Shown here piece by piece: positions 13,976 to 61,117 of a stretch of 64,000 nt of DNA. How positions within the stretch are numbered: the stretch's first letter is position 1; each line of letters starts with the position of its first letter. The notes beneath the pieces are model-generated. The model saw nothing but the letters and a program-made list of their open reading frames with translations. It did not search any database and was not told where the DNA came from. Origin of the DNA: a virus; the IMG/VR virus record IMGVR_UViG_3300005098_000017, positions 1 through 64,000 of that record, one strand, 5' to 3'. Made by a program: the position numbers and the translations under genes.

Positions 13976-14677
13976 TCAATAGACTTGAATACCTTCTCCT
14001 TTTTCTTTCTTCTTTTCGACATCCTCACCTCCTTGTCCAAGGACTGTTGACTCTAAACAAGATGGGCGTTCCGAAATTAAGAAAATGAAGTCGCCATGTT
14101 CTATGGCATCTTGAAGGTCATAAATGCACCAAACCTCTTTACCAATTTTAAAGAGTCCTCTTTCCATGGGTACCAATATATGACATTTTGGACACTCTAT
14201 AACACTCGGCATACCCGGTACATATATAATAAGATCATCTGAGGAATCAAAATCAATGGTCTGTGTGTCAGTTGAATCAGATGTGTATGTACCTGTGTCA
14301 TACCAAACATGGTAGTTAGTACCATCATCATTATAACTATTAAAGGGCACATAATCATCAAAAGGTACAAATGGCACAATAGGATATGCTCTTAGTGGAA
14401 AAGCTAGCATATGAGAGGGTAATTTAATATCTACCTCACCCTCAAAAACATCCCTTGTAAGTAAATATGCAGCAAATCCATTTTTATACCTATCAAGCGC
14501 ATTCCGTAGTGAATGCACAAATACAGACACATGCTCTCTGAAGCGGCATGTGAATTCTCGCATTAAGCCGCGCAGTTCAGGAACATTAGTATCAATAATT
14601 GCTATATGCTCTCTGGAAGGCGAGTTTTTGTTATAACCAATTATCACATAAGGCATAAGCGCGTCATCACTTTGCAT
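13976..14677 (-). CDS. hypothetical protein with CxxC (paralog of 10786..11364)
   Basis: RBS AGGGAGGT; shared C-terminal domain. Confidence 0.65.
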   Translation of the reverse strand: MQSDDALMPYVIIGYNKNSPSREHIAIIDTNVPELRGLMREFTCRFREHVSVFVHSLRNALDRYKNGFAAYLLTRDVFEGEVDIKLPSHMLAFPLRAYPIVPFVPFDDYVPFNSYNDDGTNYHVWYDTGTYTSDSTDTQTIDFDSSDDLIIYVPGMPSVIECPKCHILVPMERGLFKIGKEVWCIYDLQDAIEHGDFIFLISERPSCLESTVLGQGGEDVEKKKEKGEGIQVY

Positions 14678-56810: not shown

Positions 56811-56969
56811 ATGTTGGTATTTAGGAGGTATACGCATCCTAGGGAGGTTCGCTGGTTGGGCTGGATAGAGACTCATGATGGTTGTTGTGTTGGGTTTATT
56901 AGGCTTGATGGTAGGGTTGTATTTGATTGGGATTCTGGGTTCTCTGGTAGTAATAGTAGTGTTAATTGA
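56811..56969 (+). CDS. small hypothetical protein (52 aa; not in the ORF track)
   Basis: AAGGAGGT RBS, promoter and terminator; MLVFRRYTHPREVRWLGWIETHDGCCVGFIRLDGRVVFDW.. Confidence 0.7.
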   Translation: MLVFRRYTHPREVRWLGWIETHDGCCVGFIRLDGRVVFDWDSGFSGSNSSVN

Positions 56970-56994
56970 AGCATAGGGTATATGTTGGTATGTT

Positions 56995-57024
56995 AAGCCG
57001 GCCGCTTTTGAGGCCGGTTTTTTT
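56995..57024 (+). terminator. intrinsic terminator
   Basis: AAGCCGGCC/GGCCGGTTT hairpin plus T-run. Confidence 0.75.
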
Positions 57025-57245
57025 ATTTTCTCTTATAAGTACTATCTAAGTAACTATGTGATCAGTCTACTGACACATGGCAGACTTGGGGTTAGTGAAA
57101 AATGGACCTCTTGTAGCTTGTTTGTGACTATGTGGGTTGGTGGAACATTCTCATCCGTATGCACCATGGTTAGCGAAAGTGTTAAGGTTGGTGCATGTGA
57201 TTGAGAGTGTTGTTGGTAGGTATTAGTCCGTTGATATATAATATA

Positions 57246-57340
57246 ATGGGTAGCCCATGGGAAATATATCTTAACTGTGGGCTGCCTTTATGACAATTTG
57301 GACACCAGTGGGCTGCCCTTTTTTAAGTGTGTGGGCTAAC
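57246..57340 (-). CRISPR. CRISPR-like micro-array: repeat GGCAGCCCAC (2 exact copies + 2 variants), spacers 13/21/21 nt
   Basis: Repeat copies at 57331-40, 57308-17, 57277-86 and 57246-55; the first is the 3' end of the omegaRNA-like scaffold. Confidence 0.5.
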
Positions 57341-57465
57341 CGTAAGGCTTCCTGTTTCAGCGAGGGGTGGCTAGGCTTGTGTGAAGCCCCGCCAGAGCCC
57401 TCTCCGCAGGCGTAAGTTCGGGCCGCCCCGGCCCTACCACCCGTGAGGTGGGTGAGCCCGTTTTA
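57331..57465 (-). ncRNA. TnpB omegaRNA-like scaffold, detached from tnpB
   Basis: GTAGGGCCGGGGCGGCCCGAACTTACGCCTGCGGAGA..CGCTGAAACAGGAAGCC..TAG..CAC is the pattern of IS605-group tnpB 3' ends; one frame reads VGPGRPELTPAE, like TnpB C-terminal tails. Confidence 0.75.
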
Positions 57466-57569
57466 TCTGTTTTAATACTCATATTCCTTAACATGGCAAG
57501 CAAGATCTTTGACTTATTTAGTGACTTGATCGATTTACTTGTCTGTCCCTTATTATCCACATTAACTTA

Positions 57570-57722
57570 TTAATCCTCTCTCAGAGATAAGAGGATAGAT
57601 CCCAACAACACTCCTGCGATACCACATAGGGCAACAAACCAGTTATTTACCTGGCAAGCGGTTATCGAGCTTATAATCCCAGAAGCATACATCATATAAC
57701 CAATGAATCTACCTTTGTTCAT
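57570..57722 (-). CDS. small membrane protein (50 aa)
   Basis: GGAGGT RBS; two hydrophobic segments. Confidence 0.6.
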   Translation of the reverse strand: MNKGRFIGYMMYASGIISSITACQVNNWFVALCGIAGVLLGSILLSLRED

Positions 57723-57905
57723 AGGTTACCTCCCCATATTAATTCTTTAAAGCTTTAATCTTTTCACTTTATACATTCTTTAAAGCCTTTTGAATGGGTT
57801 TTGACCAACGCCCTACCCAATTTCAAAGAGCATAGTATTATCAATAGCCTGATAAAATACTGGTATTGAAAGATGCCCTATACCCGTACTTCCAAATCTA
57901 CATGA

Positions 57906-58136
57906 TTATGTGTCGTTGCTATAGGCATCATTATTATTGTGATTAATAGGTTTGATGCCTAGTGTCCACTGGGCACCGCATTCACATATTAGTGTCATCC
58001 TTTTATACCCTTGCGTATCGGATGCTGTGAATACGATGGACACCGATTGGCCGTCTTTTAGGTTCCATCCTTCTATTATGTTTGTTTTACCGCATACGGG
58101 GCATGTGAAGAAGCCCGCCCATTTTTGTTCCTTCAT
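57906..58136 (-). CDS. Zn-ribbon protein
   Basis: CPVCG..CECG. Confidence 0.65.
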   Translation of the reverse strand: MKEQKWAGFFTCPVCGKTNIIEGWNLKDGQSVSIVFTASDTQGYKRMTLICECGAQWTLGIKPINHNNNDAYSNDT

Positions 58137-58528
58137 TTTATCTCCTTATTATTTTTATCGTTGAAATATGTTTTTCTAAATTCCTCTAGGATAGGTTCAT
58201 CACCTGTACCATAGAGGACGGCGTGCATCCATTCAGTTACCTGATCTGCTGTATGGTGTGGAAATACATCCTTCATGCATCCGAAGTATTTTTGCCAGTT
58301 GGTTGGTTTAGGTTTTTTATGTTCTTTTATAGTCCATTTTTTGGTAGCTGTGGCGGATCCGTAGGTTGTGAGGATGAGGCCTATAATTATTATTATTATG
58401 GTGTATGTAGTGGGATTATTGGTGTAGTGGTGGAGGAGGAAGCCGGCCGCAGTGGTAAGTAGGCCCCAGAATCGTTTGCTCCTCCAGAAGGGTTTGGTGT
58501 TATTATTGTTATTATCGTGTGTGTTCAT
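58133..58528 (-). CDS. membrane protein, possibly holin-like
   Basis: KPFWRSKRFWG followed by two TM segments. Confidence 0.55.
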   Translation of the reverse strand: MNTHDNNNNNTKPFWRSKRFWGLLTTAAGFLLHHYTNNPTTYTIIIIIIGLILTTYGSATATKKWTIKEHKKPKPTNWQKYFGCMKDVFPHHTADQVTEWMHAVLYGTGDEPILEEFRKTYFNDKNNKEIK

Positions 58529-59756
58529 TTTGGGTCTCCTTTATGTTATGAAGCCCGCGCTTCAGTATATTAATACTTGCATTATAATCTCTATCGAGGG
58601 TTGCACCACAGAACGGGCATTTATGTATACGATCGTGGAGTGCCTTAGGTACCTTATGTCCACATGAGGAGCATGTCTGCGTAGTATATGCTGGGTTAAC
58701 CTTGATGACTTGTGAGCCGTGAAGCCGCGCCTTGTAGGATGTTAGATTGATAAGTGTGTTCCATCCTGCGTCGTAGATGTATTTAGAGAGGTGAAGCCGG
58801 CGGCGCTTGCTTACAAGATCATGTATTTTTATATCCTCGAATATAATAACATCATAGTTAGTAGCGAGCTGATGTGAGATATGATGGAGGAAGCCGCGCC
58901 GCATGTTAGCTAATCGTTCATGAAGTCTGGCTAGTTTACGCCTCTGTTTCATATAATTAGCACTCCCTCGCTGCTTGCGCGAGAGCTGTTTTTGTACACG
59001 CTTTATACGTTTTTCGAGTTTGGAGATGAAGCGCGGGTTAGATACAATATTACCATCACTTGATACGATGAGATTCGTAAGCCCGAGATCTATACCGATG
59101 ACGCGCTGCTTACTATTAATATCGGTAACGATAGTAGTGTCATTATTATTGGGTACTTCAACTGTTACATATGCATACCATCTACCACTGGGATGTCTCT
59201 TTATAGTAACATTTTTGGCTTTAGTCCATTCGATAGGTCGGTGAAGGCGGATTTTTAAGCCGCCGAGTTTGGGTAAATGAATATATGCGAACTTATCATT
59301 CAGTTTCTCAAATTTAATGACAGGATACCCATCCGGATAGTTTTTATGAGTCATCCAAACTTGTGGATATGTAAGTGATAAGTATTGATCAGGGTTTTTG
59401 GGTTTAGGCGGACTTATATGTCCTTCTTTATTCCTGATGGCTACAAAGAAACGCTTATATGCCCAGTCAATCTTATCAATTATAGCCTTTAAGACACCTG
59501 AATAAACGAGCCTTAAGGCAGGTTCCTCTCTTTTAAATGCGGTTAGGTTACGTTGCCTCTCAAATTTTGTAGGGGTTCTATGTTCTTCATCCCATATACG
59601 TCTGTATTCATTTATTTCGTAATTATAGAACCAGCAGAGGATGGACAGCCAGTTTTCTAGTTTATATTCCTGTAGTGTTGTTGGATAGGCTCTGAATTTG
59701 TAGGTGAGGTAGGAAGCCGCCGCCTTATCAGTATTTTTTGATCCTTGTTTATTCAT
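58512..59756 (-). CDS. tnpB: TnpB (IS200/IS605-family RNA-guided nuclease), solo
   Basis: YKFRAYPT N-terminus; RuvC IGIDLG / FED / DRDYNA; Zn finger CSSC..CPFC; no tnpA in the window. Confidence 0.95.
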   Translation of the reverse strand: MNKQGSKNTDKAAASYLTYKFRAYPTTLQEYKLENWLSILCWFYNYEINEYRRIWDEEHRTPTKFERQRNLTAFKREEPALRLVYSGVLKAIIDKIDWAYKRFFVAIRNKEGHISPPKPKNPDQYLSLTYPQVWMTHKNYPDGYPVIKFEKLNDKFAYIHLPKLGGLKIRLHRPIEWTKAKNVTIKRHPSGRWYAYVTVEVPNNNDTTIVTDINSKQRVIGIDLGLTNLIVSSDGNIVSNPRFISKLEKRIKRVQKQLSRKQRGSANYMKQRRKLARLHERLANMRRGFLHHISHQLATNYDVIIFEDIKIHDLVSKRRRLHLSKYIYDAGWNTLINLTSYKARLHGSQVIKVNPAYTTQTCSSCGHKVPKALHDRIHKCPFCGATLDRDYNASINILKRGLHNIKETQNEHTR

Positions 59757-60095: not shown

Positions 60096-60548
60096 TCATG
60101 CATCTCCAAACCGTTGCATCAACCGTTCCATGCTTTTTCTAAAGAGCTTCACCGATGCGTACAATAGATTGGCAGCAATAGCAAGATAAAGCACACCTAT
60201 AGGAGGCTTTGAGAGGAACGGTACGACACTTGATACAATAAATGCAATACTCATGTTAGCAGCAAACTGATGATAACGAAAATAATGATTCAGTATTCCT
60301 TCGTAGACACTAACATCATCACTTGATAGATTTTCAAATGTTATGTGAGTTTTTGATGAAATACCACATATGAAATTATAACGAATCGTATCAATAATAA
60401 GCCCCAGCATGAAGGATGATACAGCAAATGCACATGCCCATAAGCCCCACGGTATAGTTGGACCAAAAAGTCCTATCTTATATATATGGAGAAGAAGGAA
60501 GAAGCCCGGCAGAAAATGAGCAATAAAAACACCATATAAGAAACTCAT
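60096..60548 (-). CDS. multi-pass membrane protein
   Basis: About four hydrophobic segments; RBS. Confidence 0.7.
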   Translation of the reverse strand: MSFLYGVFIAHFLPGFFLLLHIYKIGLFGPTIPWGLWACAFAVSSFMLGLIIDTIRYNFICGISSKTHITFENLSSDDVSVYEGILNHYFRYHQFAANMSIAFIVSSVVPFLSKPPIGVLYLAIAANLLYASVKLFRKSMERLMQRFGDA

Positions 60549-60574
60549 TAAGGTCCCTCCTTATTTTGATAACC

Positions 60575-61117
60575 TTAGAATAAACTGAATCCTACATAAA
60601 GATCCCAACCACGATCAAATGATTCATTAGAATTAACGAACTGGCTATTATCGTAGGAAGCCCCGACATAGAAGGTGGGTGATAATATAATAATGCCCTG
60701 ACAGAATGATTCAGAAAGAAGAAACGGATTCATAAGCGCCACAATGATTGATAGATCTATACCTACAGACCCAGAAAGACGCATGTTGGTGTAGTCGAAG
60801 CCGCCGCCCCTTCCGTAGCCAAGCCGGCCGCCTAAACGTATGAAGGATAACTCCTTAATAAGTGGTATATCAACATCCATTGATGCAAAAAGACCATTAC
60901 CAGATCCCTTGGGGGTTCTTATGTGTTCATACCCGAGGCCGGCGTAAAGAAGTGGATATGATTCCTCATCATGGTTGAGTAGATATTTGAAGCCCCCGCT
61001 CCAGTCCTTGTTGTAAACATTTTTGTCAATTTCAATATTGATCGGGAGAATATGAGGCAGGGCATTTGATATAGCAAGAGCAGAGAGGATTAATAAAACA
61101 GTGAATATTTTACGCAT
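60575..61117 (-). CDS. putative outer-membrane beta-barrel protein
   Basis: Signal peptide ..LAISNA|L; alternating Gly/aromatic strands; C-terminal LYVGFSLF. Confidence 0.65.
   Translation of the reverse strand: MRKIFTVLLILSALAISNALPHILPINIEIDKNVYNKDWSGGFKYLLNHDEESYPLLYAGLGYEHIRTPKGSGNGLFASMDVDIPLIKELSFIRLGGRLGYGRGGGFDYTNMRLSGSVGIDLSIIVALMNPFLLSESFCQGIIILSPTFYVGASYDNSQFVNSNESFDRGWDLYVGFSLF

What the first reader, a model, noticed from the sequence alone, without database searches (positions are those of the whole stretch)
57246..59756. Domesticated phage TnpB with a detached omegaRNA and a repeat-spacer micro-array (proto-CRISPR-like)
Seen: tnpB keeps all three RuvC acidic residues, has no tnpA, and its 3' end overlaps the next gene, so the usual overlapping omegaRNA/right end is missing. 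An omegaRNA-like scaffold sits about 1.05 kb downstream beyond three unrelated genes (57331-57465), with a possible promoter of its own. It still encodes the vestigial TnpB tail VGPGRPELTPAE, and its terminal hairpin is shrunk to AGCC-TTAC-GGTT. Its 3' end GTTAGCCCAC is then reiterated: 13 nt - GGCAGCCCAC - 21 nt - GGCAGCCCAC - 21 nt - GGCTACCCAT (31-nt period), with fainter look-alikes down to about 57090. The repeat's GGC can pair with scaffold GCC, and its AGCCC with the 5' GGGCT. Established: Cas12 systems arose repeatedly from TnpB, with the omegaRNA splitting into tracrRNA and repeat. Inference: an immobile, multi-guide TnpB with very short repeats and no Cas1/2, used against competing elements or the host.
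Basis: partly seen in the sequence, partly recalled or inferred. Interest (0 to 1): 0.92.

Follow-up and report, generated by a model that had tools for sequence, protein, structure and literature searches.

The report
Phage TnpB with detached, swappable guide RNA
A hydrothermal-vent phage keeps a transposon-derived RNA-guided DNA cutter (TnpB) whose guide-RNA gene now sits 1 kb away behind inserted genes, and the guide differs between sister phages in small units bounded by copies of the guide RNA's last 13 letters: raw material for a CRISPR-like array, not shown to work as one.

Summary
tnpB (58512-59756, minus strand) is intact and single-copy. It has no TnpA or left end in the 147-kb virus record and is under purifying selection (dN/dS about 0.09).

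The GC-rich segment 57308-57459 is a true omegaRNA scaffold. A covariance model built only from host (Aquificota) elements hits it at E 7e-25.

The tnpB/omegaRNA split lies exactly after ...NILKRGL. Relatives carry different cargo genes in the gap.

GCCCAC occurs three times within 55 nt, the only such cluster in the genome. The first two copies belong to the scaffold: a terminal stem-loop plus the guide-adjacent terminus AGCCCAC. The guide starts at 57307.

Thirteen related contigs give seven alleles. All keep AGCCCAC, and what follows differs. Five different first guides occur, three of them among phages whose TnpB differs by 3% or less. One allele carries two guide units in tandem, separated by the same 13-nt terminus copy found in the window.

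No target, TAM or RNA evidence was found, so multi-guide use is unproven (about 20%).

This scan has noted similar phage TnpB mini-arrays on other genomes. The closest published kind is TranC, but this locus does not meet TranC's features.

The parts
58512..59756 (-). tnpB, 414 aa. It ends right after the RuvC-III/zinc-finger region (...NILKRGLHNIKETQNEHTR) and lacks the ~40-aa tail of canonical relatives.
   Evidence: Pfam domains. Alignment A3 with invariant D223, E307 and D388/D390. Match to ISDra2 TnpB structures, E 4e-41. dN/dS 0.09-0.2.
58133..58528 (-). Cargo ORF 1, 131 aa, overlapping the tnpB stop by 17 nt. No family match. Also present in alleles E and F.
57906..58136 (-). Cargo ORF 2, 76 aa, a CxxC...CxC zinc-ribbon-like protein. 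Present as a 78-aa gene in alleles E and F.
57570..57722 (-). Cargo ORF 3, 50 aa, hydrophobic. It is specific to the window; every other allele has a dUTPase gene here.
57343..57459 (-). Conserved omegaRNA scaffold core, 117 nt, from GGGCUC to GGAAGCCUUA. It is 91.5-100% identical among the seven alleles.
   Evidence: Model R1 hit. Core identities. nhmmer to canonical tnpB 3' ends. Frame-0 translation matches the canonical tail.
57308..57342 (-). Variable 3' part of the scaffold: a linker, the first GCCCAC (57336-57331), an A-rich loop, GGGC, and the terminus AGCCCAC (57314-57308). The GCCC...GGGC stem covaries with ACCC...GGGU in alleles C, E and F.
57290..57307 (-). Guide 1 (g1), 18 nt, starting UGGUGUCC. 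It is shared with allele B and replaced by unrelated sequence in alleles C, D, E, F and G.
57277..57289 (-). R, a 13-nt copy of the scaffold terminus (AAAGGCAGCCCAC). It is identical in alleles A, B and E, and equals the last 12 nt of allele G's terminus.
57256..57276 (-). Second guide-sized segment, 21 nt, starting AGUUAAGA. It is homologous but fast-evolving in alleles B, C and D. It is either a fossil of an older guide or a second guide.
57246..57258 (-). Degenerate terminus copy (GGCUACCCAU) inside a weak terminator-like hairpin, followed by an A/U-rich run.
57120..57141 (-). A 22-nt stretch identical to the guide of allele F (L008). In allele F the scaffold terminus is fused directly to it, through a ~170-nt indel.

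Best explanation
This is a domesticated, immobile IS200/IS605-type TnpB of a phage lineage from hydrothermal vents. The host is probably an Aquificota bacterium.

The gene pair has been pulled apart. tnpB keeps its whole catalytic core, and the guide-RNA (omegaRNA) gene that normally overlaps its 3' end now lies 1,052 nt downstream. Variable cargo genes fill the gap: a dUTPase in all relatives, three small ORFs here. Both parts keep a copy of the junction word GGGCT.

The 152-nt scaffold (57459-57308) has lost the transposase-binding right-end hairpin and one long stem. It keeps the conserved helices and ends in AGCCCAC, which parallels the canonical terminus GGUUCAC.

Inferred mechanism: TnpB binds this RNA and uses the ~16-20 nt after AGCCCAC (from 57307) as its guide to cut matching DNA. 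The likely purpose is competition with co-infecting phages or other mobile elements, or homing of the locus.

Shown: the guide is exchanged between sister phages as small units bounded by copies of the scaffold's last 12-13 nt. These copies let recombination swap, stack or delete units.

Inferred: only the scaffold-proximal guide is used, and the downstream units are displaced older guides.
For: Scaffold identity:
- Model R1, built only from 15 host omegaRNAs, hits the window at E 7e-25 and all relatives at 95-104 bits.
- The translated tail matches the canonical tail, E 2e-17.

Selection:
- tnpB has dS 0.73 and dN 0.068 between the window and L005.
- The scaffold core is 91.5% identical over the same distance.

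Immobility:
- No Y1 TnpA and no left end.
- tnpB and the scaffold are each single-copy.
- The right-end hairpin is deleted in the model alignment.

Canonical ends:
- Host elements end ...GGUUCAC, after which their flanks diverge.
- Their left-end flanks give the TAM TTTAA.

Guide turnover:
- Seven alleles from 13 or more contigs in JGI, ENA and Logan assemblies all keep AGCCCAC and then diverge.
- Proximal unit type and guide type occur in all four combinations, which indicates recombination between them.
- Alleles C and E have 100% identical scaffold cores, yet E has an extra guide plus R inserted before C's guide.

Literature:
- The ISDra2 C-terminal domain is dispensable.
- In ISDra2, omegaRNA nucleotides -5 to -3 form a pseudoknot with the scaffold's 5' part. 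Here AGCCC-AC shows the same geometry against the 5' GGGCU (PMC10097598).
Against: - There is no RNA evidence. No RNA run holds the locus, so transcription, processing and 3' ends are unknown.
- No target or TAM was found for any of the five guides.
- The TAM of the phage enzyme is only extrapolated from relatives that are 50% identical.
- The pairing partner of AGCCC is unresolved. The canonical RNAs use an internal GAACU, which the phage RNAs also keep but cannot pair with AGCCC. Thermodynamic pairing probabilities were inconsistent between alleles.
- The 13-nt copy R is letter-perfect in three alleles. That fits constraint better than a decaying fossil and so favours the multi-guide rival.
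Confidence: 0.6

Rival explanations
1. This is a true multi-guide micro-array, a proto-CRISPR. Each 13-nt terminus copy can take the place of the scaffold's own terminus, by alternative pairing with the 5' GGGCU in cis or after processing. One scaffold would then present several guides: g1 and the 57276-57256 segment here, and two guides in allele E.
For: - R is identical in alleles A, B and E while the flanking spacers are unrelated.
- Units are guide-sized: 16-18 nt plus 13 nt, with a period of 29-31 nt.
- Allele E stacks two units, with the new one next to the scaffold.
- Every AGCCC is complementary to the 5' GGGCU, and minimum-energy folds close the scaffold with whichever copy comes last.
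- The literature proposes that type V arrays arose by serial duplication of omegaRNA segments (PMC10691335).
Against: - There are only one or two extra units per allele.
- Several copies are degenerate: CUACCCAU in the window, and CCCCGC or CCUCAC in alleles C and D.
- In alleles C and D the second terminus copy varies by homopolymer indels.
- A 5-bp pairing across a 31-nt or longer insertion is weak for a thermophile.
- Pairing probabilities are inconsistent between alleles.
- No targets were found.
Confidence: 0.2
2. The AGCCCAC-type words and the variable segments are DNA-level features unrelated to guiding. They could be a recombination hot spot or regulatory sites in a fast-evolving intergenic region, including a possible antisense promoter. 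On this reading TnpB uses a fixed guide or none.
For: - The whole locus is mosaic. Cargo genes are swapped with a breakpoint exactly at the scaffold's 5' end.
- Large indels occur further downstream.
- A conserved sigma-70-like site at 57213-57242(+) points into the array.
Against: - The variable zone starts exactly at the position where canonical elements switch from scaffold to guide.
- R copies the scaffold terminus itself.
- The number of promoter-like sites is no higher than in shuffled sequence.
Confidence: 0.08
3. TnpB acts as an RNA-guided regulator in the manner of TldR, binding a promoter of the phage or the host instead of cutting a competitor.
For: Domesticated TnpBs with adjacent guide RNAs are known as repressors (bioRxiv 10.1101/2023.11.30.569447). 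The locus is immobile and conserved.
Against: - The RuvC D-E-D residues are intact and conserved, whereas TldRs are nuclease-dead.
- The guide differs between near-identical phages, which is not expected for a fixed regulatory target.
- Except for allele F's guide, no guide matches the 147-kb phage record.
Confidence: 0.07
4. This is a decaying insertion-sequence remnant. tnpB and the scaffold are relics with no present function, and the repeats are scars.
For: The locus has no transposase, no left end and no right-end hairpin, and the omegaRNA is detached from the gene.
Against: - dN/dS is 0.09 over dS 0.73.
- The ORF is intact in all eight TnpB sequence variants found.
- The scaffold evolves about eight times more slowly than synonymous sites.
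Confidence: 0.05

Closest known systems
IS200/IS605 TnpB-omegaRNA (OMEGA) systems, e.g. ISDra2 (PDB 8H1J, 8EXA; PMC10097598), and the canonical Aquificota elements fetched here (L010-L029)
   Same: - The protein family and catalytic residues are the same.
- The scaffold is homologous at the sequence and structure level.
- The guide directly follows a short terminus ending in CAC.
- The terminus leaves two unpaired bases before the guide, as in the ISDra2 pseudoknot.
   Different: - The omegaRNA gene does not overlap tnpB. It lies 1,052 nt away behind cargo genes.
- There is no TnpA, no left end and no right-end hairpin, and the locus is single-copy and fixed in a phage lineage.
- The guide is polymorphic at one genomic site, instead of reflecting different insertion sites.
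- Copies of the last 13 nt follow the guide.
TranC, transposon-CRISPR intermediates (Jin et al., Cell 2025, doi 10.1016/j.cell.2025.09.004, not read here; described in bioRxiv 10.64898/2026.03.27.714800 and PMC13565253)
   Same: - The nuclease is TnpB-sized, without Cas1/2.
- It is often phage-borne (CauTranC9).
- Several guides sit behind a scaffold-derived repeat.
- It represents a step between the omegaRNA and a CRISPR array.
   Different: - TranC has CRISPR repeats of 32-38 bp, 3-20 repeats, and a separate tracrRNA.
- Here the omegaRNA is unsplit, the 'repeat' is 12-13 nt, and each allele has one or two units.
- No anti-repeat or tracrRNA division is seen.
Irregular omegaRNA-like arrays and the 'serial duplication of omegaRNA segments' model (Altae-Tran et al. 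2023, PMC10691335)
   Same: A piece of the omegaRNA ending at the sharp scaffold/guide boundary is duplicated, with guide-sized sequence behind each copy.
   Different: The described arrays have repeats longer than 60 bp or repeat whole omegaRNAs. Here only the last 12-13 nt are copied.
Free-standing homing endonucleases of phages (intronless homing and marker exclusion, e.g. T4 SegF; reviewed in PMC13565253)
   Same: A nuclease gene fixed in a phage genome sits in a mosaic 'island' with swapped neighbouring genes. Its presumed use is against co-infecting relatives. Allele F's guide matches a site 170 nt downstream in the other alleles.
   Different: Specificity would be carried by an exchangeable RNA guide instead of the protein. 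Activity and targets are not shown.
TldR, TnpB-like nuclease-dead repressors (bioRxiv 10.1101/2023.11.30.569447)
   Same: A domesticated, immobile TnpB with its own guide-RNA gene, found in phage and prophage contexts.
   Different: TldRs have lost the RuvC residues and keep a conserved guide against a promoter. Here RuvC is intact and the guide varies.

Membership tests
IS200/IS605 TnpB (OMEGA effector protein) | OrfB_IS605 / RuvC fold with the D-E-D triad and a zinc-finger TNB domain | tested here: met
   Pfam hits at 1.8e-24 and 2.8e-23. D223, E307 and D388/D390 are conserved. ISDra2 TnpB structures match at E 4e-41.
IS200/IS605 TnpB-omegaRNA element | An omegaRNA scaffold homologous to that of related elements, with the guide directly 3' of it | tested here: met
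   The host-only covariance model R1 gives 91 bits, E 7e-25, at 57308-57459(-). Sequence diverges between alleles right after the terminus.
IS200/IS605 TnpB-omegaRNA element | The omegaRNA overlaps the 3' end of tnpB | tested here: not met
   1,052 nt and three ORFs lie between the tnpB stop (58512) and the scaffold start (57459). Relatives have 0.4-1 kb of other cargo.
IS200/IS605 mobile element | Left and right ends with TnpA-binding hairpins, TnpA in cis or trans, and multiple copies | tested here: not met
   No PF01797. No left-end homolog, against 16 control hits in host loci. The right-end hairpin is absent from the model alignment. One copy in the genome. The record is 84% complete.
TranC / type V CRISPR-Cas | A CRISPR array of full-length repeats (about 32-38 bp, three or more repeats) plus a separate tracrRNA with an anti-repeat | tested here: not met
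   Repeats are 12-13 nt, with one or two units after the scaffold. The scaffold is one continuous homolog of the omegaRNA. TranC features are taken from bioRxiv 10.64898/2026.03.27.714800.
TranC / type V CRISPR-Cas | Spacers that differ between strains while the repeats stay conserved | tested here: met
   Seven alleles share a fixed AGCCCAC and an identical R in A, B and E, with unrelated sequence between.
TranC / type V CRISPR-Cas | Use of more than one guide by the effector | not testable with these tools
   No RNA run holds the locus. This needs RIP-seq or cleavage assays.
TldR (nuclease-dead TnpB repressors) | Loss of the RuvC catalytic residues | tested here: not met
   The catalytic D, E and D are all present and conserved.
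omegaRNA arrays with long repeats (PMC10691335) | Repeats longer than 60 bp, or whole-omegaRNA duplications | tested here: not met
   There is only one scaffold copy in the genome. Repeats are 12-13 nt.

The most novel reading that the evidence does not exclude
This would be a natural, Cas1/2-free minimal guide array. 12-13-nt copies of the omegaRNA's guide-adjacent (pseudoknot) strand would let a single unsplit scaffold present alternative guides. New units would enter at the scaffold-proximal end by recombination between co-infecting phages. That would be the earliest observed stage of the omegaRNA-to-CRISPR transition, used in phage-against-phage warfare.
Probability: 0.18. Interest if true: 0.9.

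Novelty: new variant of a known kind. Interest (0 to 1): 0.7.

Why it matters
Type V CRISPR arrays are thought to have arisen by duplication of omegaRNA segments, and the published intermediates (TranC) already have full-size repeats and a split RNA.

This locus shows an earlier state in living populations:
- The omegaRNA is unsplit.
- The gene and the RNA are physically uncoupled.
- The RNA's last 12-13 letters are copied behind the guide.
- Guide units are swapped, stacked or deleted between phages that are otherwise nearly identical.

It makes two questions directly testable: whether such short terminus copies can present alternative guides, and whether phages use TnpB as a retargetable weapon or homing nuclease. 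The thermophilic, 414-aa enzyme with a naturally shortened scaffold may also interest people who engineer compact nucleases.

Tried and rejected
- **Rfam.** No family reaches its gathering score in the window. The relaxed search gave only two chance-level hits.
- **Expression.** No RNA holder was listed. Four DNA runs (vent, marine or unlabelled metagenomes) were laid. They held host copies of the scaffold core and the downstream block, and none bridged the array. This gives no verdict on expression.
- **Guide targets.**
  - Exact 16-18-mer scans of IMG/VR for g1, g2, g3 and the L005 guide gave 21, 14, 5 and 3 hits. None extended beyond 19 nt and there was no common flank, so these are at chance level.
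  - In 178 Aquificota genomes with up to 2 mismatches, hits were 1 against 2 control hits, and 0 against 1.
  - Guides of the other alleles do not match the 147-kb record, except allele F's guide at 57141.
- **Earlier-note self-match.** g1 against 14197(-) is 17/21, with mismatches at guide positions 1-2, no TTTAA flank, and in CPxCH codons. I treat it as chance.
- **More relatives by DNA pattern.** The first metagenome pattern found nothing. The second found two contigs.
- **Alternative pairing.** Base-pair probabilities for the 5' GGGCU pairing with each terminus copy, at 37 and 70 C, were inconsistent between alleles.
- **Second scaffold.** Model R1 gives only one hit in 56900-57700, so there is no degenerate second scaffold downstream.
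- **Own promoter.** The consensus scan found none in front of the scaffold.
- **Records not held.** The records behind L008, L090, L005 and L091 are not held and could not be searched for the homolog of gene 13976-14677.
Full report
**Setting.** The window is the first 64 kb of a 147,433-bp IMG/VR virus record that is linear and 84% complete. GC content is 40.5%. The nearest cellular relatives of its TnpB are Aquificota MAGs from vents and hot springs, at 48-53% identity. Runs sharing words with the region are mostly hydrothermal-vent metagenomes. A phage of Aquificota is therefore the likely setting; this is an inference.

**The protein.**
- ORF 58512-59756(-) is a 414-aa TnpB with the three expected Pfam domains.
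- Against 17 homologs, the RuvC residues D223 and E307 are invariant, and D388 and D390 (in the conserved DRD motif) are conserved in at least 90% of sequences.
- It aligns with ISDra2 TnpB structures over residues 20-412 (E 4e-41).
- Canonical relatives are about 40 aa longer. After the shared ...NILKKGL they continue THLTGGRVGATRTYACGEGSGG...PSLKQES, while the phage protein ends 12 codons after NILKRGL.
- In ISDra2 this C-terminal domain is disordered and dispensable for cleavage (PMC10097598).
- The gene is single-copy.
- The record has no Y1 transposase and no homolog of the canonical left end. A left-end profile finds 16 control copies in host loci.
- Between the window and the most distant phage relative (L005, 86% aa identity), dS is 0.73 and dN is 0.068. 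Closer pairs give dN/dS of 0.11-0.20. The gene is maintained by selection.

**The detached guide-RNA gene.**
- nhmmer with it finds the 3' ends of canonical tnpB genes at E 1e-21 to 1e-8.
- I built a covariance model from 15 host omegaRNAs only: 58 pairs, 14 of them with compensatory changes. It hits window 57308-57459(-) at 91 bits, E 7e-25, and hits every phage relative at 95-104 bits.
- One reading frame of the scaffold reads GLTHLTGGRAGAARTYACGEGSGGAS..PSLKQEA, 29/40 identical to the tail of homolog P0005 (E 2e-17).
The idea of a vestigial tail is right.
- The split is exact. tnpB keeps ...KRGL, encoded with GGGCTT at about 58550. The scaffold starts with GGGCTC at 57459. A 5-nt junction word is therefore present on both sides of the insertion.
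- Relative to the canonical RNA, the phage scaffold lacks a 32-nt long stem and the 8-bp hairpin that precedes the canonical end. That hairpin is the usual TnpA-binding right-end hairpin. The locus looks immobile.

**What lies in the gap.** The window has three ORFs of 131, 76 and 50 aa with no family match. Relatives have other combinations, and all of them carry a dUTPase immediately upstream of the scaffold. The window's record has no dUTPase at all. Homology between the window and L003 breaks inside the 76-aa gene and resumes exactly at the scaffold's 5' end.

**Where the scaffold ends.**
- Canonical elements end ...hairpin-A-GGUUC-AC, after which their flanks are unrelated.
- Their left flanks give the TAM TTTAA.
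- In the window, the model aligns this terminus to CAGCCCAC at 57315-57308.
- All seven phage alleles have [C/U]AGCCCAC at this point and diverge after it.
- The segment between the conserved ...GGAAGCCUUA and this terminus varies from 10 to 39 nt. In six alleles it contains a first [G/A]CCCA[C/U] and a later GGG[C/U] (or GG in allele B) that can pair; GCCC...GGGC in the window becomes ACCC...GGGU in C, E and F. Allele D lacks this stem-loop.
- The same unit is recognisable in L005, across dS 0.73.
- AGCCC is complementary to the scaffold's 5' GGGCU and leaves AC unpaired before the guide. ISDra2 has the same geometry: nucleotides -5 to -3 are paired in the pseudoknot and -2/-1 are not Watson-Crick paired.
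- I could not decide between this pairing and the canonical partner GAACU, which the phage RNAs also keep. L005 has 5' GGUCU and a matching AGACU further upstream.

**The repeats.** GCCCAC occurs 25 times in 295 kb of both strands. Three copies lie at 57336, 57313 and 57282(-), and no other 100-nt window has three (about 3e-4 genome-wide). After the 18-nt guide g1 (57307-57290) comes R (57289-57277), a 13-nt copy of the terminus. Then follows a 21-nt segment (57276-57256), and then a degenerate copy inside a weak terminator-like hairpin (57258-57246).

**Comparison of homologous loci.** TnpB cluster members, neighbouring dUTPase genes and a DNA pattern gave more than 13 contigs from JGI, ENA and Logan assemblies. 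They fall into seven alleles.

| Allele | Loci | What follows the terminus |
|---|---|---|
| A | window | g1, R, common segment |
| B | L091, L129, L144 | a different pre-terminal unit, then g1, R, common segment |
| C | L003 | g2 (starts UUUGACCG), a degenerate copy, a short piece, a third copy, common segment |
| D | L090, L135, L136, L138, L141-143 | as C, but without the terminal stem-loop |
| E | L133, L147, L148; two samples | g3 (starts UAUGUCUA), R, then g2, a degenerate copy |
| F | L008, L009 | terminus fused to a sequence that lies 170 nt downstream in A-D (window 57141-57120, 22/22) |
| G | L005, L006 | another guide |

- The two types of pre-terminal unit and the two guides g1 and g2 occur in all four combinations, so units recombine.
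- C and E have 100% identical scaffold cores. Even so, E has an extra unit on the scaffold side, and its g2 differs from C's at 4 of 31 positions.
- R is identical in A, B and E, and equals the last 12 nt of G's terminus.
It was obtained from independent assemblies.

**What it does not show.**
- Each allele has only one or two units after the scaffold.
- Several copies are degenerate.
- No RNA data exist.
- No guide has a convincing target in IMG/VR, in 178 Aquificota genomes or in the phage record.
It is 17/21, with mismatches in the first two guide positions, and lies in CPxCH codons. I treat it as chance.
- The only internal match is allele F's guide against the other alleles' downstream block. 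It would fit a homing or marker-exclusion scheme, but the flank there (…GTTCC) is unlike the canonical TAM.

**Reading.**
- The best-supported account is a domesticated TnpB with a detached but functional omegaRNA. Its guide is exchanged between co-circulating phages, by recombination at copies of the RNA's last 12-13 nt.
- Whether the downstream units are displaced fossils (my preference, about 0.6 for the whole account) or are used as further guides (about 0.2) cannot be decided here.
- The locus is not TranC. TranC has 32-38-bp repeats, 3-20 repeats and a tracrRNA. It is also not TldR, because RuvC is intact.
- It fits the proposed origin of arrays by duplication of omegaRNA segments (PMC10691335), at an earlier stage than those described.
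- This scan has noted comparable phage TnpB loci on other genomes. One of them (e1-5661866) also has copies of the omegaRNA end.

Noticed in passing
whole 147-kb record; in the window e.g. 57390, 58117, 58446, 58557, 58728, 58800, 58897, 59720, 60508-60996 (- strand): The dispersed word SSGGCTTC (GCGGCTTC, CCGGCTTC, CGGGCTTC) occurs 179 times. 72% of all GGCTTC hexamers are preceded by two S bases. In the 57-61 kb stretch all copies lie on the coding (-) strand. Six lie inside tnpB and one in a scaffold hairpin that host scaffolds lack. It could be a Chi-like, packaging or modification word.
   Followed up: partly
window 57213-57242 (+) and 57443-57466 (+): The best sigma-70-like site of the region (TTGGTA-18-TATAAT, 10/12) points antisense into the guide units and scaffold, and is conserved in alleles C and D. 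A terminator-like hairpin plus T-run lies on the + strand at the scaffold's 5' end. Together they could give an antisense RNA of about 220 nt. The T-run may simply descend from ancestral Lys codons.
   Followed up: no
window 57144-57166 / 57189-57211: A 23-nt inverted repeat (78% complementary) lies in the non-coding block downstream of the guide units and is conserved in alleles B-D. It ends just before ...GAGAAUGUUCCAC, which resembles the canonical right-end terminus GAGAGGUUCAC. It may be the fossil of an older end.
   Followed up: partly
window 57465-57934 versus L003:6823-7327: The window is the only allele without a dUTPase upstream of the scaffold, and its record has no dUTPase anywhere (PF00692). 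A 50-aa hydrophobic ORF and non-coding DNA take its place.
   Followed up: partly
L012:3354-3424 (host MAG, Aquificales): A canonical host element is followed, 47 nt after its right end, by a second partial omegaRNA scaffold without tnpB. Tandem right-end pieces therefore also occur in the cellular relatives.
   Followed up: no
L016 and L017 (two Aquificaceae MAGs): The same right flank follows the canonical end in both, so the insertion site is shared between two MAGs. Left flanks of six canonical copies give the TAM TTTAA.
   Followed up: partly
window 56995-57020 (+): A strong intrinsic terminator (9-bp GC-rich stem, T7 run) on the + strand closes the non-coding block downstream of the guide units. 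It is conserved in L003.
   Followed up: no
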